DNA of 64,000 nt, from contig OZ024742.1 in assembly GCA_964016885.1 (NCBI GenBank), positions 208,878,001-208,942,000 of the forward strand, given 5' to 3'. The translations under genes and the position numbers were made by a program. The notes beneath the pieces were generated by a model. The model saw only the letters and a program-made list of their open reading frames with translations, searched no databases and had not been told where the DNA came from. Positions within the stretch are counted from its first letter, which is position 1. Each line of letters opens with the position of its first letter. The DNA comes from Eledone cirrhosa (taxonomy: Eukaryota). Shown here in pieces: positions 3,601-62,013 of the stretch.

Positions 3601-4155
3601 CCTTTCACAATGTATATAGTGGATATCATATAACATATTCCAAGTGTCACGGTCATTTTTCATTATATTCTACAATCTTTAATTTGGTTTTCTCGTCATA
3701 TTTTAAGCCCTTGATCTTTTTTCCATAGCCTTAGATTTTCGCTCAAATCTTCGTAGAGTTTGTAAACCAAATATGATGTCATATGTTTTTTTACGGTTAT
3801 AAATCTTTCGAGCAATTTCCTTTATTTACCCAGTTTCTATAGTTAGGCCTCTAATATTTGAATACCGTCTATAATATTCGCACATACACCTCATCAATTT
3901 ACTTTTAACCGTTATTTACAGCTGTTTTCATTTTGACAGCGTTCCTGATCAAAAGTCTCTCTCTCTCTCTCTCTTCCTCTTTTTTCTTAAATTTTTCCAT
4001 TCTTTTCTCTTTCTTTTTCCTTTTTCTCCTCTTCTTTCCTTTCTTCTATTTTGCTATCTATTTCTTACTATAGTTTGAACACTTATATTTCTGTCATATG
4101 TAGACTTAGCACTTTCCTGTAAACAACTGCTATTATGCCTCATATCAAGTTACCC

Positions 4156-4225
4156 TATTTTATCTGATGAGAACACAATTTTTGTCTCAGGATGATTTTG
4201 TATTCGAAATGCGCATACTAAAATA
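4156..4225 (+). ncRNA. Type I hammerhead ribozyme (second pLTR arm)
   Basis: tattttat-CTGATGA-gaacacaa..ttgtattc-GAAA-tgcgc-ATA-ctaaaata; mismatch at the first stem I pair. Confidence 0.8.
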
Positions 4226-4340
4226 TATTGAACTCTTTTAACCATCTTTTAATTTCTTCTTTATTATATATATATATATATATATGTGTGCGCGTGTGTG
4301 TGTGTGTGTGTGTGTGTGTTTATATATATATATTTATATG

Positions 4341-4433
<93 letters not shown>

Positions 4434-6375: not shown

Positions 6376-6477
6376 TATATATATAACGAAGGAATTGTGG
6401 TAAGGAACCAGATGGACCATAACGCACCAGAGTACTCATTACTTAGAGTAGTAGAGTGGGCAATTGGAAAAGGTATG

Positions 6478-6573
6478 ACCCCGACGGCAAAGCTCAAGCC
6501 GTTTCGACGGCTATTTTTAGACTAAATTAGAATTTTTAGCCCGGTAAATAAATAGCCGAACTTATCAAGGGGT
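6478..6573 (-). ncRNA. Type I hammerhead ribozyme, U3:A8 variant
   Basis: acccc-TTGATAA-g..cggctattt..aaatagccg..c-GAAA-cggc(ttgagcttt)gccg-TC-ggggt; all three stems form. Confidence 0.82.
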
Positions 6574-8419
6574 ACTTATATGAGAAGATTGTAATTGACA
6601 AGAGGGTTGGTCAAGATTTGTTGTAAAGCAAATAAATCTATCATGGCATTTGATGGTGGGGGGTAGGGGTGGGTGAATATGCCGGTAGAACAAAGAGGGA
6701 GTGAGTAAAGCCATTCAGACATTGAAAGTGAAATCTATACAGCAGATTCTAAGGATAGTGTATGAAAAGTCGAAAAATTGTTCTGGAGAAAAGAAGGAGG
6801 GGAGTTTAAAGAATAGGTAAGTCGAATTGGTGTAGGAGACAATGAAAATAAAAAAATATATATATAAAAATTAGATAGTGAGAAATGAATAAAAAAACAA
6901 AAACAGTAGAGTCTAGAAACAGCTGCTATAATTAGTAGGTGTTGCTAATACGGCAAAGCTATTGAAAAGTTTAATAAGTAGAGAATGGAAAATACTAAAT
7001 AAGAAATTGTAGAAGTGGGTAGTGAAAAATATAATGCAAACTGTTCAGGGGGTTTAACACAGCTGCTATAAATAGTTAGCAAACCGTAATCAGCCAATGC
7101 TATCTTACAGGTTAATAAGTTGAGAAAAGAAAATACTAAATGTTGAAATTGTAGAAAGGAGTAGTAACAAAAAAGAAGAAATTACAGGGGTCTAACACAT
7201 CTGCTATAAATAGTTAGTAAAGCGTAATCGGCCAGTTCTTTCTTAAAATGTGGGGGTACTGAGGCTACAGAGGACCGATGGGCGCATCGGGGTAGGCGAA
7301 AGGGGAAAACAGACGAGAGAGAAGATCGGGGGTGGAAGGAAGTGATAGGATGAGACGGGGGGAGGAAGGAAACGCAGAGGAAAAGAAAAGAGGTACGTAT
7401 ACCTATGTAAGCAGGGGTTTCCCCTTATTTATTCGGCAAGTGGCGGTATCAGTCCTTGTCTACCCACCCGGGTCGTTATGGGGTTTGAGGTCGAGGTAAG
7501 TCATATGCAATCTGTGTTTGCTGGCGGTTCCTCTTTCTTGTTTAGGAATTGGTCCTTCGAAAACAGCATTTTTAATGTTTCCTCCGAGCATAAGTTACAC
7601 GGACGGCGTCCTCCCGTGTAAGAGTTAGATCTGGACAGTAAGCTCCAAGTGAGATTGTAGTTTATATTATTATCTTTGGGGTTCCAGATGTGGCCGAAAG
7701 TGTAGTGGCATGTCGCCGGACCGTGTATCGGAAAGTATGTCGGTGTTGGTAGAGCCGCGTCTTGAAGTCACAGCAGATGTGTTAGACCCCTGTAATTTCT
7801 TCTTTTTTGTTACTACTCCTTTTTACAATTTCAAAATTTCTTATTTAGTATTTTCTTTTCTGAACTTATTAACCTGTAATTGTGAGATAGCATTGGCTGA
7901 TTACACTTTACTAACTATTTATAGCAGCTGTGTTAAACCCCCTGAAAAGTTTGCATTACATTTTTCACTACCCACTTCTACAATTTCTTAAGAATTTTCC
8001 ATTCTCTACTTATTAAACTTTTCTATAGCTTTGCTGTACTAGCAACACCTACTAATTATAGCAGCTGTTTCTAGACTCTACTGATTTTGTTTTGTTATTC
8101 ATTTCTCACTATTTAATTTTATATATATATATTTTTTTATTTTCATTGTCTCCTACTCCCATTCAACTTACCCATTCTTTAAACTCCCCTCCTCCTTTTC
8201 TCCAGAACAATTTTTCGACTTTTCATACACTATCCTTAGAATCTGCTGTATAGATTTCACTTTCAACGTCTGACTGGCTTTACTCACTCCCTCTTTGTTC
8301 TACCGGCAAGTTCAGCCACCCCTACCTCCCACCACCAAATGCCATGATAGATTTATTTGTCTTTACAACAAATTTTGACCAATCCTCTTGACAATTACAA
8401 TCTTCCCATATAAGGAAGT

Positions 8420-8515
8420 ACCCCTTGATAAATTCGGCTATTTATTTACCAGGCTAAACATTCTAATTTAGTCCAGAAATAGCCGTCAAAACGGCTTGAG
8501 CTCTGCTGTCGGGGT
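8420..8515 (+). ncRNA. Degenerate family C HHR copy
   Basis: Inverted copy of 6478-6573; GAAA mutated to AAAA. Confidence 0.65.
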
Positions 8516-8530
8516 CATACCTTTTCCTAT

Positions 8531-9804: not shown

Positions 9805-10130
9805 AGAGAAAATTGAGATTGGTAATGGCACATGGAATATATAAGAGACAGAATACTTTTTTGTGAAAAAAACATATAATTTTATAAGGTAAGGCAAGAA
9901 TAAAGGGTATAAAAAATGACCGGTTTCGATGAGTCTGCAAAAGCCATCTTTTGATGGCTTTTGCAGACCCATCGAAACCGGTCATTATTTATACCCTTTA
10001 TTCTTTCCTTACCTTATAAAATGATATGTTTTTTCACAAAAAAGTATTATGTCTCTTATATATTCCATGTGCCATTACCAACCTCAATTTTCTCTATAAC
10101 CCTCGTTTTGTGTAGAAACTTACACTTTTC
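9805..10130. mobile_element. Fold-back pLTR mini-element, ~144-bp arms, 4-nt loop
   Basis: 9805-9948 is the reverse complement of 9953-10095; each arm holds the HHR 3' half gatgg..ccatc-GAAA-ccg-GTC. Confidence 0.85.
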
Positions 10131-10859: not shown

Positions 10860-12165
10860 AATTATGTATCTATTGTGCATAGACATTCTATGACTAATAG
10901 TAATCTATCAAATACAACAACTCTTGCCAGTAAAATATGGCAACTTATGAATGCAGGCACTAAATATGAGATCAGTTGGAACATATTATCATTTGTAAGG
11001 CCTATCAAACTGGTATGTCCCATTGTAGGCTCTGTAATATGGAACTCTTCCAAATTCTTAATTTTAGTAAAACCCTTCTTAACAGCAAAATTGAGCGAAC
11101 TATCTTTTGCCAGCATAAATCAGCAACGAAATTCCTGAACTTTAGACCAACTTAACTCCATTTTCTATTCCTTATTTTATACTTTTAGCACCTATTACGA
11201 TGTCACATTATTAAAACTTCATATTTACGTAAGAATAACCTAAAAACATTTGTATTAACATCATTGTTGGACGCCATGCTTTCTAGCATAGTTACGCCCC
11301 TTTACAGTCTGAGTTCAAATCCCGCCGAGGTTAACTTTGCATTTCATCCTTACGGGGTCGATAAAATAAAGTACCAGTAATGTACTGGATATTTGCTGGC
11401 CTTGTGCCTAAAGTAGAAACAATTATTTATATTTTTATTTGTATTTACATGATTTATTATCTTATATGTATACACCTCTCACCATTTGTCTTTGTATTTC
11501 TCCACTTAAACATATTTCATCTCGATTATTTTACCCTATAGTTTAATACATCTCAAACTAGCTATGGTGCGTAGTAATGTTTATTTCTCCGTCTGTTTAG
11601 TTTCTTTTCTCTCTTCTTCATATCCCCATATTCATGATGAATTTCTATCCTCTCTGCTTCCTCATCCCTCTTAATTGTCCTCTATTTCTTTCTCATCTTC
11701 TTTACTTATCCTTCCTCTCTGCCTATGATATATCCCCCCTTCTCTCTTCTATATATATTTTATTATTATTAATATTATATTTATTTATTTTGATGTGATT
11801 GTTTGATTTCGTAAATTTTACCGGTTATATATTTAACTATATCTGCGAACCTTCTTTCGTCATTTTCTTTCTTTCTCTCCCATTTTCATCTGTTCTCCTT
11901 CCTTTATTTATTTATTTATTTATCATTAATATTATTATTGATGTAGTAATTAAAAGTTTTAAGTTTACCGTTACGCATATATTTTATATTTCTTATTTGT
12001 CTGTGATGAAATTATGGTACTTAGATGTATTGTAAATTGAGTTGTACTGTCTCCAGTATTTAGCAATTTATAGACATTTCTATCATTTAAACAATTGTAA
12101 GACTGTAATTAAATATCATTGTTTTGTACTGTCAACTATGTTATTCTTCACTCTTTTATATATAT
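10860..12165 (+). mobile_element. PLE 3' fragment (endonuclease C-terminus + pLTR)
   Basis: TTLASKIWQL..YEISWNIL..CRLC..SFCQHK; decayed HHR-like trace ~11999-12103; SINE inserted at 11268. Confidence 0.7.
11268..11428 (+). mobile_element. tRNA/CORE-type SINE (5'-truncated)
   Basis: B-box-like gagttcaaatcc, ccgaggttaactttgc..gtcgataaaataaagtaccag, agaaacaattatt tail. Confidence 0.85.
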
Positions 12166-12301
12166 ATATATATATTAGGGTAAACATTGATGCAATTCAA
12201 TTCAAGCACTCAACGTACCTTTTCCACATAGGAGTGACGGAGTAAATATCGAATAAGGAAAAGCGAAGTAGTTTCAGATGTTCAAGTCCTTTAATAATAA
12301 T

Positions 12302-12375
12302 GCTGTGATATATATTTCAATGACGACACTGGCCACACTGTTCTGTGTGCGAGTGTCGTGTCATCATCAGACAGC
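12302..12375 (-). ncRNA. Type I hammerhead ribozyme
   Basis: gctgt-CTGATGA-tgacacgacact..agtgtcgtcatt-GAAA-tatat-ATC-acagc. Confidence 0.82.
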
Positions 12376-13479
12376 TTGTTACATAATAAGGTTATGTTTC
12401 CGAGGCAATTCAAATTGAATCGACATGGGAACGGATGAAGTTCGTGCTTTTGGGTTTTTCTTCCGTTCCCTTGTGAGTACCAATTCACCCCCACCGGTCT
12501 GCACAAGCGCATGTCCGAAGGAATTTGACCATTAGCCACCGCAGATTTCAACGAAATTCGCTGTCAGTTCACCCTCTCAGCCAAAACAATGGCCCACCTA
12601 TGCCTTACCAAAGTTTACTGCTACCCATCACGACTGTGGCAGTCAGCCAAAAGCCAGAGGGGATGGGAGGGTGTTAGGTTTTATAGGTCATAATACTACC
12701 TTTCACTAAGCGTTGACAGAAAGACTGACCATCAACTCATAAGGGAAAATAAACTTAATTCTAGGTACCATGGTTTTACATTGGAAGTTAAGAGTGAGAG
12801 TTGGAAATAAAAATTAAAAATTAAAATCCTAAATCAAATATCAGAGATTATAAATTAAACAATTAAAAATTAAAAAATGTTTCAAGTGATAATTCGGATT
12901 GAGTAAAAATATAGATTGAAGTGAGTAAATAATATGGAGCAAGATGTTTAAGTAATAAGTTCTGAGAGGGATTCTAGTGTCACAGTTACTCTATCCACAT
13001 ATTGAACGACAGTGCCGTACATTATAACGGAGGGCAGACTACAGGGTTCAAGGCATTAGTCAATCTGGTACAGTCATAATTTCCATCACATGGAACAAAA
13101 TCAAAGAAAAACAGACATAATGTACACAAAAGAAAAGAAAAGAAGAGAACCAACAGTGAATAAATGCAAAAACACAGAGTACATATATGCAAAATGATAC
13201 ATATGATTGTCCATCTGTCCATGTATAGATTGAATTGAGGGGGCTTCTGTTCAAATGCGATTTGGTGCAGGAAAATAGGGTTTATCTTATTTTTTGTTTC
13301 CGCGTATTTATCCTGCCGAAAGTTACTATTACGCCCGTCCAGTGTCAGGGATTTTCATGCAATTCAATTCAAGCACTCAACGTACTTTTTCCACATAGCA
13401 GTGACGGAGTAAATATCGAATAAGGAAAAGCAGTGTCGTCATTGAAATATATATCACATCATTATTATTAAAGGACTTG

Positions 13480-13655
13480 GATTGGCAGTATCGGTAGAGG
13501 GTCGGACGCCATGCTTTCCAGCATAGTTACGTCCCTTTACGATCTGAGTTCAAATCCCGCCGAGGTTGACTTTGCCTTTCATCCTTACGGGGTCGATAAA
13601 ATAAAGTAGCAGTAATGAACTGGTGATTGCTGGCCTTGTGCCTAAAGTAGAAACA
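13480..13655 (+). mobile_element. SINE with 19-bp target-site duplication
   Basis: TSD attattattaaaggacttg at 13461-13479 and 13656-13674. Confidence 0.92.
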
Positions 13656-14872
13656 ATTATTATTAAAGGACTTGAACATCTGAAACTACTTCACTTTTCC
13701 TTATTCGATATTTACTCCGTCACTCCTATGTGGAAAAAGTACGTTGAGTGCTTGAATTGAATTGCATCAATGTTTACCCTAATAATTTAGCTCCAATTAG
13801 TTGAGCGCTCTATGATGTAACCGATATGGTGGAGAAGAGAGGAACCAACCAAGAGCTACCCCGGAAATTCCCTCTACCATGGGGATGAAAACCCCTGACA
13901 CTGGACGGGCGTAATAGTAACTTTCGGCAGGATAAATACGCGGAAACAAAAATAAGATAAACCCCTATTTTCCTGCACCAAATCGCATTTGAACAGAAGC
14001 CCTCTCAATTCAATCTATACATGGACAGATGGACAATTATATGGATCATTTTGCATATATGTACTCTGTGTTTTTGCATTTATTCACTATTGGTTCTCTT
14101 CTTTTCTTTTATTTTGTGTACTTTATGTCTGTTTTTCTTTGATTTTGTTCCATGTGATGGAAATTATGACTGTACCAGATTGACTAATGCCTTGAACCCT
14201 GTAGTCTGCCCTCCGTTATAATGTACGGCACTGTCGTTCAATATGTGGATAGAGTAACTGTGACACTAGAATCCCTCTCAGAACTTATTACTTAAACATC
14301 TCTCTCCATATTATTTACTCACTTCAATCTATATTTTTACTCACCTCAATCCGAATTATCACTTGAAAATTTTTTTAATTTTTAATTGTTTAATTTATAA
14401 TCTCTGATATTTGATTTAGGATTTTAATTTTTAATTTTTATTTCCAAATCTCACTCTTAACTTCCAATGTAAAACCATGGTACTTAGAATTAAGTTTATT
14501 TTCCCTTATGAGTTGATGGTCAGTCTTGCTGTCAACGCTTAGTGAAAGGTAGTATTATGACCTATAAAACCTAACACCCTCCCATCCCCTCTGGCTTTCG
14601 GCTGACTGCCACAGTCGTGATGGGTAGCAGTAAACATGGGTAGGGCATAGGTGGGCCATTGTTTTGGCTGAGAGGGTGAACTGACAGCGAATTTCGTTGA
14701 AATCTGCGGTGGCTAATGGTCAACTTTCTTCGGACATGCGCTTGCGCAGACCGGTGGGAGTGAATTGGTACTCACAAGGGAACGGATGAAAAACCCAAAA
14801 GCACGAACTTCATCCGTTCCCATGTCGATTCAATTTGAATTGCCTCGGAAACATAACCTTATTATGTAACAA

Positions 14873-14946
14873 GCTGTCTGATGATGACACGATACTCGCA
14901 CACAGAACAGTGTGGCCAGTGTCTTCATTGAAATATATATCACAGC
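14873..14946 (+). ncRNA. Type I hammerhead ribozyme
   Basis: Inverted copy of 12302-12375: gctgt-CTGATGA..GAAA-tatat-ATC-acagc. Confidence 0.8.
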
Positions 14947-14993
14947 ATTATTATTAAAGGACTTGAACATCTGAAACTACTTCGCTTTTCCTT

Positions 14994-15031
<38 letters not shown>

Positions 15032-28362: not shown

Positions 28363-28454
28363 AAGCAAAAGGATATTTAATTTGTTGGTAATTCAACAAA
28401 TATATTTATAACAGATTCGAAGCACTCGACAGTTTTTCTGGAATATAATATCAA

Positions 28455-28589
28455 TAATTGTTTCTACTTTTGGAACAAGGCCAGCAATTACCCAGTACAT
28501 TACTGGTACTTTATTTTATCGACCCCGTAACGATGAAAGGCAAAGTTAACCTCGGCGGGATTTGAACTCAGACCGCAAAGGGACGTAAA
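28455..28589 (-). mobile_element. SINE inserted in pLTR
   Basis: Reverse complement of SINE core and tail. Confidence 0.85.
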
Positions 28590-31171: not shown

Positions 31172-31236
31172 TATTTTATCTGATGAAAGAACACCATAAT
31201 TTAACTTGGTGTCCTTGAAATATGTATAATGAAATA
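31172..31236 (+). ncRNA. Type I hammerhead ribozyme
   Basis: tattttat-CTGATGA-aagaacacca..tggtgtcctt-GAAA-tatgt-ATA-atgaaata. Confidence 0.78.
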
Positions 31237-31463: not shown

Positions 31464-31795
31464 TTATTCAGAATAATAATAAACGAAGACATTCACATAG
31501 TCAAAATATGTTTTATTATATATATTTCGAAGTTAACGTGCTGTTTTTTCAGTACGTCCTCATCAGATAAAATACATGAATTGATGTATGACATACGTCA
31601 ACGGTCTTGATGGTTCAATTCCAGTACTGCCAATACTGGAATTGAACCAAAAAACCGTTGAGGTATGTCATACATCAATTCATGTATTTTATCTGACGAG
31701 GACGTACTGAAAAAACAGCACGTTAACTTCGAAATATATATAATAAAACATATTTTGACTATGTGAATGTCTTCATTTATTATTATTCTGAATAA
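31464..31795. mobile_element. ORF-less fold-back element with an HHR on each strand
   Basis: Arms 31464-31626 / 31634-31795; HHRs at 31511-31572 (-) and 31687-31748 (+): ttttat-CTGAYGA-ggacgt..cttc-GAAA-tatat-ATA-ataaaa. Confidence 0.88.
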
Positions 31796-39258: not shown

Positions 39259-39584
<326 letters not shown>

Positions 39585-39669
39585 ATATATATATATATAT
39601 ATATATGTATATTTTTCTTCCTCATAATCGTCTCTTTCTCCCTATTTTCATATATATATATATATATCT

Positions 39670-40189
39670 TTAGGTTTGTTGGTTCACCACTGGATAGAAA
39701 TGGTCATTCCGTATGGTCAATCCTAGTGTAATATTGTGAAGAGTACTCAACGCCGTGCAGTTCATCTTCGTTTGTGTAGTTGGTGGTGCGAATACGGGGT
39801 TAATTATAAATGAAATAACAGGAGGCTGGACTGGTGTATATCCTTGAAATGTTTATTATACTATGATCATTTCAATGACCAGGTTCCATATGAATACGGT
39901 GATATCATCAGGTATTGGAATATAACAAAGGAATATGTAAAAAGCCATGGATCCGAAAAATCAAAGACAGAGAGGACGGCTGACCAACTAGCTTCTCAGC
40001 CAGCCGCCCTCAAAGTCAGCCGTCTTCTCTGTCTCTGATCTTTCGGACCCATGGCTTTTTACATATTCCTTTGTTATATTCCAATACCTGATGATATCAT
40101 CGGATTTATATGGAACCCGGTCATTGAAATGATCATAGTATAATAAACCTTTCAAGGATTTACACCATTCCAGCCTCCTGTTATTTCAT

Positions 40190-40194
<5 letters not shown>
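39670..40194. mobile_element. ORF-less fold-back element with decayed HHRs
   Basis: Arms ~39806-39984 / ~40015-40194; caatac-CTGATGA..GGAA-cccg-GTC-attg at ~40082-40126. Confidence 0.8.
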
Positions 40195-40256
<62 letters not shown>

Positions 40257-40412
40257 TAAGAATTAAAATACTAGAGTGCGTTGGAGTAAAACACACTCGT
40301 CATATTATAGAAATGACAGTATAGGATATAGCTCAATGTAATACAACAGAGCCGAAAAATTATAAAAATTATAAAAATAGACAAAGAAGCCTTCAATACA
40401 TCAAAAGTCTTT

Positions 40413-40458
40413 ATTAGCCTACAATGTTTCGTCCCATTAAGGACTCATCAGGGCAATT
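40413..40458 (-). ncRNA. Type I minimal hammerhead ribozyme
   Basis: gcc-CTGATGA-gtcc ttaatg ggac-GAAA-catt-GTA-ggc. Confidence 0.9.
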
Positions 40459-40472
40459 AATCTTATCTGTTT

Positions 40473-40518
40473 AATTGCCCTGATGAGTCCTTAATGGGAC
40501 GAAACATTGTAGGCTAAT
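40473..40518 (+). ncRNA. Type I minimal hammerhead ribozyme
   Basis: Identical to the minus-strand copy. Confidence 0.9.
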
Positions 40519-40549
40519 AAAGACTTTTGATGTATTGAAGGCTTCTTTG

Positions 40550-40620
<71 letters not shown>

Positions 40621-41297
40621 TTATATGTGTTGTAAAATAAAGGAAATGCCTTGGTAAGTCAGATATATTTGAAAAAAAGAGAAGAATGACTCCACTACCG
40701 GTTGGTATTCTTTAATATTTCAAAATCTTTATAGGAAGTCGTTGTTAATATTAACTCTGGTAAGTCTTTGTTAACTTATGTGGATAACGTTAATTCCTAG
40801 TTCTGGAGGACTTCCTCGCATTCGGTGGCGCTTTTCAAATTTGTCTAATGAGGTATGTTGATGTACATATATAACTAGCATAGTTTTATTCGTTTATATT
40901 TCTGGGGTAGATAAAATATCATATCTGACCAATGTGCTTGAATGGTTTATTTGAAATCACCATACGATATGTGTAAAAATACACGAAGAAACTAACGGTT
41001 AAATGCTGAGACGATGCGGTCACATAATTAGTTCGCTCCCACCAAATGCACTTACATATACACACACTCACACATACGCAGACACACACATACATACAAC
41101 CACACACACAGACAGATACACACATAAGTAGACAGGAAATAATAAAAAAATTGCGTGGAGAAGAACGTGGGGCTGGAAACCGAATGCTCGTACAAGAAAC
41201 TCTAGAATAACATCTTAAATGATCGGCCACAATAAATTATACACACATACCGCCCATACACACACACATACACGCACGCACACAGACACACACACAA

Positions 41298-41338
<41 letters not shown>

Positions 41339-43240
41339 ACGTGAACGAACCCACAAAAGAAGCAGTACAATAAAGAAATATATTAGTTTAACGCTCGGTG
41401 TTTGTTTGCGTGTTCGTCTGTGAGTGTATGTATGTGTGTGTGTGTGTGTGCATTGGAGTGTGTACGTAGAATTTTCAAATTACAATTTCCTTTGTATATT
41501 TATACTACTTATATGTTTCTGATGAATACTGAATACGTGTATCTTTCCCCCGGGAGTGACCTCACACATACAAACTGTAAACAAACACAAATGCTTCGAG
41601 AATTTTAAACCCGCACGACTGCTGCAATTGTATAGGGAATGTCAAGTAAGTTGAAATAGGAGGACTATGTTGTTGCCTAGTTACATAAAGTTGGTAAACA
41701 GAGGAAACAGGAGAGACAGGAAGTTATTCACATAGTTGATCCATGTTGAGATATTTTTGACTTATGATATTACATTTCAGAGATATATTATTATTCTATT
41801 ATATTAGTATTCCATTCGATTTGTTATCGAAGTATTATAAATCAGTAATAATTTATTTAGAGGCTGAACTAACGTAAATTTCATGTTTATGTAGGCTTCG
41901 TGGTCATTGACGTCGTTGGCGTTGCTCTCGTCTAACTAAGGTCAGCCATAACTAAGAGGATCTATAATCAAAGACATATATATATACGTTATTATCGTAT
42001 ATTTGTGTTTATGTTGTGCAATTTATGATCCTTTTAAGACAGTCCAGTTCGTTTGATATATGAGAAAGATTTGGTGTTTATGTCTAGCAAATTTACGGAC
42101 CATGTATACATTCTCGCCTTGTGGTAATTCCACTGAAATCAACTCCATTTACAATACATTTTATGGACGCCTGTTGGACTTGAACATAGCGAATGGTGGG
42201 TTTAAAAAAATACTGTAACTGCAGAGAATACACACCATTTTTTTTTTCAAATTTCTAAGATTTAGTTTGTAGGAAATCACAATATCCAAGGTTTTCGAAT
42301 GACACCCGCGGCCTTTGAGTTTAATCATTGTATGTCCCATTTGAACAGATTGCGATATAACACCTGCAGATACAATATAGGCAGAGAAGGATCTTTATGA
42401 AGAATGTTCTGGACAGAAAGTACTTTGTGAAATGGTTAGTACGGAAATATAGGGACACAGCAAGAGTGACGTGAGAAGATTTAGTCAGGTCGATATCAAA
42501 TGATATGGCATGACATCAACAAATTCTGAGTAACAAGATCACTGATGTAAAGGTAAAATAAAAAATGAGAACTTAGAACATAAGATCCAAAATTTGGAAA
42601 GTCTTTTTTTCGGAATGAGGAAGGAGTCTAAAAATGAATCCTAATCAGTCAAATGCTTCGTTTAAATGTGTGATAGGATGTCCGTATATGTTCCCTACAC
42701 CATATGGTGAATCTCACGGGAACTTTGAATATGGGTTTGTTATTGATGTTTTCTTAAGTATTTTCTAGCTCGGTAGAGGAAACCGTCTTTCTTTGAATTT
42801 AGTTTTTATATTGTTGCTTATTTATTTAGCTTCAAACTGTTGTATCATTGGAAGAGAGTAAATAGATTCCATAGTGTTAAAGACTGCGTTAATATTGATT
42901 TCCTTTGGTCAGGCAGAATAGGTCTGATTTGGCGAAATAGGTTGACGTTCATGCCAACACTTTCCAATCGAGAATCGAGATCAGAGATATATCGGTGTGT
43001 GTTGGATGGGAGCTTTGTACATTATTTACGGTGTGTTTTGATAAAACTATCATAGTTCACAACTACGTACCACAATGGGTTTTGGAAAGTGAAAAATGTT
43101 GCTATATTTCAAGCGCTGCTTTGTCTTCTGTCTCTCTACTCATCTCTCTCTTCATTTATCGATCAGTCTATCTATCTGCTTGTCTATTGTCTCTCTATGT
43201 CAAGCTCTCTCTCTCTCTCTCTCAGCATGTATATATACAA

Positions 43241-43421
43241 ATAATTATTTCTACTTTAGGCACAAGGCCAGCAAATACCCAATACATTACTGGTACTTTA
43301 TTTTATCGACCCCGTAAGGATGAAAGGCAAAGTTAACCTCGGCGGGATTTGAGCTCAGACTGTAAAGGGACGTAACTATGCTAGGAAGCATGGCGTCCAA
43401 CCTTCTACCGATACTGCCAAT
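43241..43421 (-). mobile_element. SINE, near full length
   Basis: Reverse complement of SINE consensus. Confidence 0.9.
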
Positions 43422-43861
43422 GAATCAAAACATATCAAATATATTTAGAATAGTGTGTTTCTCAATAAGCAAGCTCAATAGACATTATGCAGAGCCATGA
43501 TAACTAAATAAAGAGATATATGTTTATAAATAGAGAGAAAGAACCATATATTGCACGAGAAACAGGGTATATTGTATATATACCAAATACATATTCTGTA
43601 GTAGAATACGTACAAAGGTGGAATCAAAAGTGAAACCTTATAACGTTATTTTATACCTTTACTTTTGTACGTATTCTTCTATAGAATATGTATTTAGTAT
43701 GTATACAATATACCGTGTTTCTCGTGCGATATATGGCTATTTTTCTCTTTATATATATTCATATATCTCTTTATTTGGTTATCATAGCTCTGGAAAATAT
43801 CTATTGAGCTTGTTTATTGAGAAACAATATTCTAAACGTATTTCATATGCTTTGATTCATT
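43419..43861. repeat. ~198-bp imperfect inverted repeat
   Basis: ~43419-43616 / ~43664-43861; no HHR core found. Confidence 0.85.
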
Positions 43862-49088: not shown

Positions 49089-49279
49089 TGGATTGGCAGT
49101 ATCGGTAGAGAGTCGGACACCATGCTTTGAAGCATAGAGTTACGTCCCTTTATGATCTGAGGTCAAATCCCGCCGAGGTTAACTTTGCCTTTCATCCTTA
49201 CGGGGTCGATAAAATAAGTACCAGTAATGTATTGGGTGATTGCTGGCTTGTGCCTAAAATAGAAACAATTATTATTATT
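49089..49279 (+). mobile_element. SINE, near full length
   Basis: ggattggcagtatcggtagag..(att)n. Confidence 0.9.
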
Positions 49280-56429: not shown

Positions 56430-56842
56430 ATAATAAATGTGAAGACTAAAATCCAAAGAGGGCTCGATAAGGATAAATATATATCAAATATATAAGAACC
56501 CTAGCGCAATTATTTATTAAAATAACAGATTAAAATTTAAGCAAAGAATCGCTGCTTTCACTCTTAACGGGATCTTCTAAAACTAAAAAAATCAATCTGT
56601 GAACGCAGAAGTAAATATTTCGTAAAACGTTGCAAAGGAAAGAAAACAGGAAGACGATACTTTGGTTCGTGAAGACGTTCCCTGGCTATGAACGGAAAAA
56701 AGCGAAGATAATACGTCGTTATGTGGAGCTTTGAGAATAAATACACGCAAAGACAGAACCACGTTTATGGTATAAATGGAGTCGTAGACTAATATTCTAT
56801 TTAGGAAACCGAGTGATTCTCGGCTTCGGAGTTAAGAATAAT

Positions 56843-57027
56843 TGTTTCTACTTTTGGCACAAGGCCAGCAATTATCCCAGTGTATTACTGGTACTTTATT
56901 TTATCGACCCCGTAAGGATGAAAGGCAAAGTTAACCTCGGCGGGATTTGAACTCAGTCCGTAAAGGTACGTAACTGTGCTGCAAAGCATGGCGTCCGACC
57001 CTCTACCGATACTGCCAATCCACTGCC
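56843..57027 (-). mobile_element. SINE with 19-bp TSD
   Basis: TSD cttcggagttaagaataat at ~56824-56842 and ~57028-57046. Confidence 0.9.
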
Positions 57028-57069
57028 CTTCGGAGTTAAGAATAATGTAAATAAATTAGTAGAACGATG

Positions 57070-57180: not shown

Positions 57181-57191
57181 GTGTGTTCTGG

Positions 57192-57580
57192 TGGATTGGC
57201 AGTATCGGTAGAGGGTCGGACGCCATGCTTTCCAGCATAGTTACGTCCCTTTACGATCTGCGTTCAAATCCCGACGAGGTTGACTTTGCCTTTCATCCTT
57301 ACGGAGTCGATAAAATAAAGTACCAGTAATGCACTGAAAAATTTCTGGCCTTGTGCCTAATGTAGAAACAATTATTTCTGGCAATAAGGGCGGTGAATTG
57401 ACAGTATCGGTAGAGGGTCGGACGCCATGCTTTGACGCATAGAGTTACGACCCTTGCCATTCTGAGTTCAAATCCCGCCGAGGTTAACTTTGCCTTTCAT
57501 CCTTACGGGTTCGATAAAATGAAGTACCAGTAATGTGGTAGGTAATTGCTGGCCTTGTGCCAATAGTAGAAACAATCATT
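57192..57580 (+). mobile_element. Two tandem SINEs
   Basis: Copies at ~57192-57376 and ~57387-57580. Confidence 0.88.
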
Positions 57581-61685: not shown

Positions 61686-61746
<61 letters not shown>

Positions 61747-61810
61747 GTGGAACACTGGAAGGTAATATCCGTAGTGGTAGAGCACTCAGTCCAAGGGAAG
61801 AGTCACCATA

Positions 61811-61851
61811 CCGAGAACAAATTGTTTCACCTTCGCGGATCTTCAGCTCGG
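61811..61851 (-). ncRNA. Type I hammerhead ribozyme in a ~50-bp fold-back (61803-61907)
   Basis: ccgag-CTGAAGA-tcc gcgaa ggt-GAAA-caattt-GTT-ctcgg; decayed inverted copy 61858-61907. Confidence 0.78.
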
Positions 61852-61926
61852 GATGTGTCCCGAGCGGGAGATACTCGAAGGTGAAACAATTGTTCTAGGT
61901 ATGGTGAACTAACTGTTGTGTAACCA

Positions 61927-62013
<87 letters not shown>

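What the first reader, a model, noticed from the sequence alone, without database searches (positions are those of the whole stretch)
40250..40556. Youngest, cleanest example: 86/86 perfect palindrome with canonical HHRs on both strands
Seen: identical arms, 10-nt loop, textbook CTGATGAgtcc..ggacGAAAcattGTA core, ~125-nt unpaired left tail, no ORF. Implies very recent insertion (or arm homogenisation) and is the best experimental handle on the system.
Basis: partly seen in the sequence, partly recalled or inferred. Interest (0 to 1): 0.72.

Follow-up and report, generated by a model that had tools for sequence, protein, structure and literature searches.

The report
Stub of a Penelope-like jumping gene
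This perfect DNA palindrome is a tiny back-to-back stub of an abundant Penelope-like jumping gene, likely made when both cut ends of a TA-repeat each primed a short copy of the element's RNA; the layout is already known for this class, and this copy is no younger than many others in the genome.

Summary
In detail: 86/86 arms, a 10-nt spacer and a hammerhead (HHR) core on each strand. The interpretation mostly does not. This is the shortest form of insertion of an autonomous 4.5-kb Penelope-like element (PLE) with RT and C-terminal GIY-YIG endonuclease, bearing Hydra-clade motifs; its HHR motif has 2,293 exact matches. The 'loop' is the element's own upstream sequence. Copies end at two fixed sites, about 52 and 152 nt after the predicted cut, and 43 of 46 head-to-head insertions use one of each. 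That fits priming from both target strands, as in the one PLE studied in vitro; a single fold-back cannot make this copy. 'Youngest' is unsupported: 18 of 44 pairs have identical arm cores. Helix III is minimal, and a transcript across the locus is predicted to bury the HHR in an 86-bp duplex, so it is a poor experimental handle. No read spans the locus. Inverted 5'-truncated copies with a one-sided tail are published for PLEs, and this scan noted the same architecture on other DNA of this genome.

The parts
40192..40254 (.). (TA)n target, left side
   Evidence: sequence; all family ends examined abut (TA)n
40255..40460 (-). Arm with the 'long' end: element sense on the minus strand, from 9 nt upstream of the HHR core to the L site (cut +155 in reference numbering)
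40255..40374 (-). Unpaired tail: mostly the ~100 nt between the two fixed end sites S and L, plus a 9-nt duplication also seen in L010
40411..40457 (-). Minimal type I hammerhead, minus strand; core starts at 40451; predicted cut between 40420 and 40419
   Evidence: cleavage untested
40461..40470 (+). 'Loop': the element's own sequence upstream of the HHR, in sense on +; it belongs to the right arm. Junction at 40460/40461 with no overlap and no insert in my alignment
40461..40556 (+). Arm with the 'short' end: from 19 nt upstream of the HHR core to the S site (cut +50; a few nt shorter than most copies)
40474..40518 (+). Minimal type I hammerhead, plus strand; core 40480-40486, helix II 40487-40500, helix III 40504-40510; predicted cut between 40511 and 40512 (GUA)
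   Evidence: cleavage untested
40557..40627 (.). (TA)n target, right side

Best explanation
The palindrome is a doubly 5'-truncated, head-to-head copy of an autonomous Penelope-like retrotransposon with Hydra-clade motifs, likely made by target-primed reverse transcription from both strands of a cut (TA)n tract. Shown: the parent element (4.5-4.6 kb HHR to HHR; RT, CxCx5C linker, GIY-YIG), two fixed 3' ends about 100 nt apart, one of each end per insertion, and freely varying inner junctions. Inferred: the RT-endonuclease, probably as a dimer, cuts both strands; one 3'-OH primes at site L and the other at site S of the element RNA; both cDNAs read through the uncut HHR; their 3' ends are joined by end-joining and filled in. 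Here the two cDNAs stopped 9 and 19 nt upstream of the HHR core, so almost all of the insert is mirror-symmetric. The arms are identical from birth because both copy the same (or sibling) RNA. The HHR is the element's standard pLTR ribozyme, predicted to need a dimer or protein help, and likely does nothing at this locus.
For: Copies that carry this 3' end continue upstream into a ~1.7-kb 3' UTR and an ORF with YRDD, CNCRVSNNC, YIGST, CNLC and CPH (637-aa open piece P0001 from L033). L033 has the same HHR loop variant as the window copy (13 exact hits). N-terminal RWR and DKT motifs are in L078/L079. Ends: 43 of 46 distinct head-to-head insertions pair one short with one long end, 1 is short/short, 1 long/eroded, 1 unresolved, none long/long (47 rows, one a second row of L079). 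Among pairs picked only by the HHR motif on C1 it is 16 of 16 (P = 1.5e-5 if ends were independent at 0.5). In a second sample, 12 of 13 visible inverted partners are of the other type. Tandem copies run on past L into the 5' UTR and ORF, so both sites are internal to the RNA. Either arm can be the longer one (L083: 8 against 2,848 nt; L073: 40 against 665 nt), and resolved junctions show 0-10 nt overlap or short inserts. Raw reads of another individual show both fixed ends followed by (TA)n (228 reads at L; 206 + 191 at S) and two strand-switch joints. Frangieh et al. 2024 (PMC11167929, parts 1-2 of 4 read): a PLE protein cuts and extends both strands, starts at two internal sites that delimit the tail, is predicted to be a dimer, and uses uncut RNA.
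Against: No step of the reaction was observed for this family; the in vitro work is on a Poseidon-clade element with a 30-40 nt tail, against ~100 nt here. Two short/short cases exist (L080; L206). My chaining failed to resolve the junction in about a quarter of the long copies and in 2 rows altogether. Own-partner arms are strictly closest in only 4 of 44 pairs (joint closest in 29), so the data do not show that both arms come from one RNA molecule. Pfam finds nothing in P0001; the RT and endonuclease calls rest on motifs. No phylogeny was run. No read spans this locus.
Confidence: 0.85

Rival explanations
1. Same mechanism, but the junction marks the RNA's 5' end: many templates are short RNAs that start about 40-60 nt upstream of the HHR, and both cDNAs run off that end and are trimmed. 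(Lead from earlier notes of this scan; compatible with the best explanation.)
For: 5' ends are denser in the 62 nt upstream of the core (21 of 102 arms) than in the next two 62-nt bins (6 of 81, 9 of 75; Fisher P = 0.017, bin chosen after seeing the data). A pile-up at 39-52 nt in the major subfamily (6 of 59; 0.56 expected) partly repeated in the window's subfamily in the window fixed beforehand (4 of 48; 0.74 expected; P = 0.007). 10 loci have both HHRs within 30 nt of spacer. D. virilis Penelope has an internal promoter (PMC2377424, abstract).
Against: In the second sample 8 more ends lie at under 39 nt, so there is no sharp stop, and this copy's ends (9, 19 nt) are outside the 39-52 window. 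Long arms often stop 35-120 nt from their start, well before the HHR (10 cases), so early termination is common anyway; a length-only model is not rejected (6 of 38 against 3 of 45, P = 0.29). No RNA data.
Confidence: 0.4
2. Fold-back of a single cDNA (snap-back self-priming), guided or not by the ribozyme.
For: Perfect arms and a tiny spacer look like a hairpin product; it could account for copies in which the long-end arm reaches further.
Against: In this copy the spacer is antisense only on the strand that starts at S; copying that strand back cannot add the 100-nt tail beyond S, and the strand that starts at L does not contain the spacer's template. Junctions range from 5 nt to over 4 kb from the HHR. 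5' ends exactly at the predicted cut are not clearly enriched: 13 pattern hits (about 9 true truncations) against 8 (about 5) at one control site.
Confidence: 0.06
3. A distinct non-autonomous palindromic element (MITE-like or retrozyme) that moves as a 300-nt unit.
For: About a dozen loci share the ~290-nt asymmetric palindrome outline.
Against: Each has a different junction and they belong to different subfamilies; no two share the spacer; there is no tandem array of HHR monomers; sizes form a continuum up to full length.
Confidence: 0.04
4. Assembly or library artefact (fold-back chimera), or later homogenisation of the arms.
For: No contig spans the locus; long-read libraries can make inverted chimeras (recalled).
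Against: The right arm ends at the family's S site and the left at L, as in other copies; an artefact would mirror flanking DNA too. Strand-switch joints of the family occur in raw reads. Short-spacer pairs are no more alike than long-spacer pairs.
Confidence: 0.05

Closest known systems
Hydra clade of C-terminal EN+ Penelope-like elements (Craig et al. 2021, PMC8557442; passages, section 11, supplement part 2 of 59 read)
   Same: RT then GIY-YIG in one ORF; RWK-like motif (RWR here), DKT, CxCX5C linker, CxxC and CxH around the end of the endonuclease, (TA)n targets, HHR with a short self-complementary stem III. Penelope-13_HM is listed with a 5'-truncated inverted copy and an HHR on each strand; a cephalopod family is listed too.
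   Different: The unit here is 4.5-4.6 kb (Hydra families are 'generally <3 kb') because of a ~1.7-kb 3' UTR and a low-complexity insert; the tail is ~100 nt instead of 30-40; stem III is ACA-T-TGT, at the short end of those listed.
PAc, Poseidon element of Anolis carolinensis (Frangieh et al. 2024, PMC11167929; parts 1-2 of 4 read)
   Same: Two internal RT start sites 3' of the HHR define the tail; both target strands are cut and extended; AT-rich target; uncut RNA is the substrate; predicted dimer; HHR needs protein.
   Different: Other clade; its HHR overlaps the ORF start, whereas here the HHR lies ~250 nt upstream of the ORF; the paper as read does not report a one-site-per-end rule in genomic copies.
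Animal non-LTR retrozymes (bioRxiv 10.64898/2026.07.22.740005, part 1 of 5 read; PMC7229834, listing only)
   Same: Short non-coding sequence with a type I HHR related to PLE pLTRs.
   Different: Retrozymes are tandem arrays of HHR monomers; this is a truncated piece of an autonomous element with no repeat unit of its own.
LINE-1 twin priming (recalled; no call)
   Same: 5' inversion made by priming from both target strands.
   Different: In L1 the two pieces do not overlap and the second primer anneals at variable sites; here both start at fixed sites and copy the same stretch, which gives a palindrome.

Membership tests
Penelope-like element, EN+ | Single ORF with RT and C-terminal GIY-YIG endonuclease | tested here: met
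   Parent copies: YRDD at 143 and YIGST at 522 in one 637-aa open frame; 718-aa open piece in L065. By motifs; Pfam blank. No fully intact ORF among the copies read.
Penelope-like element, EN+ | Partial tandems (pLTR) and inverted 5'-truncated copy | tested here: met
   L060, L078, L079 have an inverted arm plus two direct HHRs; L063, L064 direct tandems
Penelope-like element, EN+ | Tail present at one end only | tested here: met
   43 of 46; length ~100 nt rather than 30-40
Penelope-like element, EN+ | HHR motif in the pLTR | tested here: met
Hydra clade | RWK motif and DKG changed to DKT | tested here: met
   RIRWRA and VPADKTKN in L079; RWR rather than RWK
Hydra clade | CxCX5C linker instead of CX2-5CxxC; CxxC and CxH near the C-terminus | tested here: met
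Hydra clade | CCHH motif absent from the endonuclease | tested here: inconclusive
   Only one Cys near the GIY-YIG core by eye; no alignment to CCHH-bearing endonucleases
Hydra clade | Insertion into (TA)n | tested here: met
Hydra clade | Groups with Hydra RTs in a tree | not tested
Type I hammerhead ribozyme | Conserved core with helices I and II | tested here: met
   the fifth pair of helix II varies U-A/U-G and position 17 varies A/C/U between subfamilies
Type I hammerhead ribozyme | Stable helix III as a monomer | tested here: not met
   2 bp and a 3-nt loop; active monomer -5.9 against MFE -10.6 kcal/mol, P = 5e-5; swapped dimer -21.5 against -24.0
Type I hammerhead ribozyme | Self-cleavage after GUA | not testable with these tools
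   No RNA holder listed; needs an in vitro assay
Non-LTR retrozyme | Tandem HHR monomers forming their own non-autonomous family | tested here: not met

The most novel reading that the evidence does not exclude
One asymmetric RT-endonuclease dimer bound to a single RNA primes at two fixed sites 100 nt apart, one per target strand, so that nearly every insertion is born as a palindrome with one long and one short end; short capped RNAs starting about 60 nt before the hammerhead give stubs such as this one. Thousands of genomic copies would then be a readable record of PLE integration geometry and of the RNA's 5' end.
Probability: 0.35. Interest if true: 0.55.

Novelty: new member of a known kind. 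Interest (0 to 1): 0.27.

Why it matters
The locus itself is ordinary: one stub among roughly two thousand copies. Its family is useful. How PLEs make their tandem and inverted ends is still open, and here the near-strict pairing of one short with one long end (43 of 46; 16 of 16 in the sample picked only by the HHR) is genomic support for two-strand priming at two fixed sites, so far shown in vitro for one element of another clade. A Hydra-type protein with its ~300-nt pLTR RNA and a (TA)n target would be a direct test. Qualitatively the layout is in print, and the scan has reported it for other families in this genome.

Tried and rejected
Rfam: no hit in the window. Pfam: no family for P0001. 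Sequencing runs: no RNA holder listed; three runs guessed to be RNA, from other organisms, laid only 0-3 short pieces on the element: no evidence on expression either way. Locus check and empty-site allele: Logan contigs break at the (TA)n tracts and none spans the locus; the right flank 40625-40800 is itself an older repeat (192 candidates, 40 scored, ~80% identity). Pile-up at the HHR cut site: weak, one control only. One search mislabelled ends through a faulty motif; replaced by alignment. One search stopped at L144; redone. Rows dropped: L144 (wrong side fetched); 4 of 64 single hits not fetched; 10 of 58 single hits left out because they were already held (9 found with the long-tail query), which inflates the 34:12 short:long ratio there and was not recomputed; 5 arms with other end types left out; L141 taken as 42 nt because overran into a microsatellite. 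One search lists only its first 100 places, all on C1. L001-L030 were found with the query itself and are biased towards its shape. Paper searches: (Penelope + twin priming + inverted + GIY-YIG) found 0 papers, which covers only the open library. Lunse et al. 2017 (dimeric PLE hammerheads) and Cervera and de la Pena 2014 are recalled, not read. bioRxiv supplements were not available. No protein database search, structure prediction or tree was run.

Full report
Observation. The arms 40375-40460 and 40471-40556 are exact reverse complements over 86 nt around TCTTATCTGT; a hammerhead core starts at 40480 on + and at 40451 on -. The left 120 nt are unpaired and (TA)n lies on both sides. This is far beyond chance (z = -25). 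Rfam finds nothing.

The family. The window lies in a 3.0-Gb genome. The 299-nt query gave 1,822 candidates, 40 scored, of two shapes: whole asymmetric palindromes, and copies that match only the left 206 nt. The latter continue past the HHR into shared upstream sequence that ends in TCTTATCTGT, so the 'loop' is element sequence in sense on the + strand. Further upstream lie a ~1.7-kb AT-rich 3' UTR and an ORF with RT and GIY-YIG motifs. A 34-37 nt HHR pattern has 1,147 + 1,146 exact matches and none for the reversed control. The window's subfamily accounts for 86 + 13; the 13 with the same loop II include L033, which has a 637-aa open frame. Full units measure 4.5-4.6 kb from HHR to HHR. RWR, DKT, CNCRVSNNC, CNLC, CPH and (TA)n targets match the Hydra clade as described by Craig et al. 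2021. Pfam is blank and no tree was built, so the clade rests on motifs.

Two fixed ends. Copies stop about 52 nt (S) or 152-155 nt (L) after the predicted cut and pass into (TA)n. Tandem copies run on past L into the 5' UTR and ORF, so both sites are internal. Of 46 distinct head-to-head insertions, 43 have one S and one L end, 1 is S/S, 1 has an eroded end, 1 is unresolved, none is L/L. The 16 pairs chosen only by the HHR motif are all S/L (P = 1.5e-5). Among 59 single hits of the major subfamily 30 end at S, 26 at L and 3 otherwise. In the window's subfamily 12 of 13 visible inverted partners are of the other type. Raw reads from another individual show both ends running into (TA)n and two strand-switch joints.

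The junction. Inner ends vary from 5 nt to over 4 kb upstream of the HHR, and either arm may be the longer. Resolved joints show 0-10 nt of overlap or short inserts; about a quarter of the long copies were not resolved. In the window copy the L arm reaches 9 nt and the S arm 19 nt upstream of the core. A fold-back of the L-primed strand would leave the spacer in antisense on +, which it is not; a fold-back of the S-primed strand could not add the tail. Two separately primed cDNAs are therefore needed (inference from the sequence). Ten loci have exact head-to-head HHRs within 30 nt, each with its own junction, so this is not a unit that moves as such.

Mechanism. Frangieh et al. 2024 show that a PLE protein cuts and extends both strands of AT-rich DNA, starts at two internal RNA sites that delimit the tail, uses uncut RNA and is predicted to be a dimer. 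The pattern here is what that predicts if each target strand takes one site. Shown: anatomy and counts. Inferred: two-strand priming, the dimer, end-joining. Whether both arms copy one RNA molecule is open: arms of one insertion differ less than arms of different insertions (1.1 against 2.7 and 1.6 against 2.4 differences), but the partner is strictly closest in only 4 of 44.

Where the cDNAs stop. Earlier notes of this scan propose that such junctions mark the RNA's 5' end. I found about twice as many 5' ends in the 62 nt before the core as further up (21 of 102 against 15 of 156, P = 0.017, post hoc). A cluster at 39-52 nt (6 of 59) partly repeated in a second sample (4 of 48, with 8 more below 39 nt). 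Early termination is common too, and a length-only model is not rejected (P = 0.29). Ends at the ribozyme cut itself are not clearly enriched. I leave this at about 40%.

Age. The long arm has 0 substitutions and 2 indels against its nearest relatives, so it belongs to a young cohort. Identical arm cores occur in 18 of 44 pairs, and short spacers are no more alike than long ones. Its S end is a few nt shorter than most. 'Youngest' and 'homogenised' are both unsupported. No contig spans the locus, so neither its presence in reads nor an empty allele could be checked.

The ribozyme. Core and helices I and II are in order. Helix III is A-U and C-G with a 3-nt loop, the short self-complementary form listed for Hydra PLEs. 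The active monomer is rare in the model (P = 5e-5), while the swapped dimer lies 2.5 kcal/mol above the dimer MFE. RNA read through this locus is predicted to be one long duplex. No RNA data exist here.

Comparison and verdict. Craig et al. describe inverted 5'-truncated copies, a tail at one end, HHRs and (TA)n targets for PLEs, and list Penelope-13_HM with an HHR on each strand. What differs is the ~100-nt tail, the longer unit and the counted S/L rule; a search for twin priming in PLEs found no paper in the open library. The scan has noted the same architecture many times in this genome, though not this sequence. Verdict: real, explained, a new member of a known kind; interest 0.27.

Noticed in passing
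window 39805-40194: Adjacent 180-nt-arm palindrome (94%) of another, very high-copy family, with an HHR-like core (helix III TGATCA) on both strands and (TA)n on the right.
   Followed up: partly
window 31464-31795: Palindrome (95%) with an HHR core on both strands and a longer left end; related HHRs at 31180 (+), 28649 (-) and 590 (-). Likely another PLE family.
   Followed up: partly
window 9805-10095, 39392-39585, 43419-43861, 61691-61997: Four more palindromes; 39392 and 61691 sit between (TA)n tracts, 39392 has an unpaired ~80-nt right tail, 61691 has one HHR-like core on the minus strand, and 9805 folds next to a GATGAG..GAAAC motif.
   Followed up: partly
window 39360-40800: At least four different repeat ends are strung along successive (TA)n tracts, as if each insertion leaves a fresh target for the next; 40625-40800 is an older family at ~80% identity.
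   Followed up: partly
window 11266-11432, 13478-13666, 28447-28588, 43235-43432, 49089-49279, 56832-57030, 57184-57580: A ~185-nt dispersed repeat at about ten places, 85-95% identical, possibly a SINE.
   Followed up: no
window 12243-13358 / 13885-15005 and 6463-7205 / 7772-8530, 365-922 / 3824-4375: Long inverted repeats (97%, 92%, 86%) with spacers of 0.5-2.9 kb.
   Followed up: no
L033 (G000:C1:75442500-75452400): A second PLE-type ORF of 619 aa from another family lies ~3.5 kb from the studied copy; the studied copy ends in an 830-nt palindrome of two short ends around a long (TA)n.
   Followed up: no
L099, L100, L102, L103, L104, L106, L108, L109, L101: About nine copies begin within one base of the predicted HHR cut, some joined to unrelated DNA; possibly copies of cleaved RNA, but only about twice one control site.
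   Followed up: partly
L021, L024, L097: Three insertions have a long arm that starts at the same place, 720-721 nt upstream of the HHR core: a possible second stop point, or an edge of my reference alignment.
   Followed up: no
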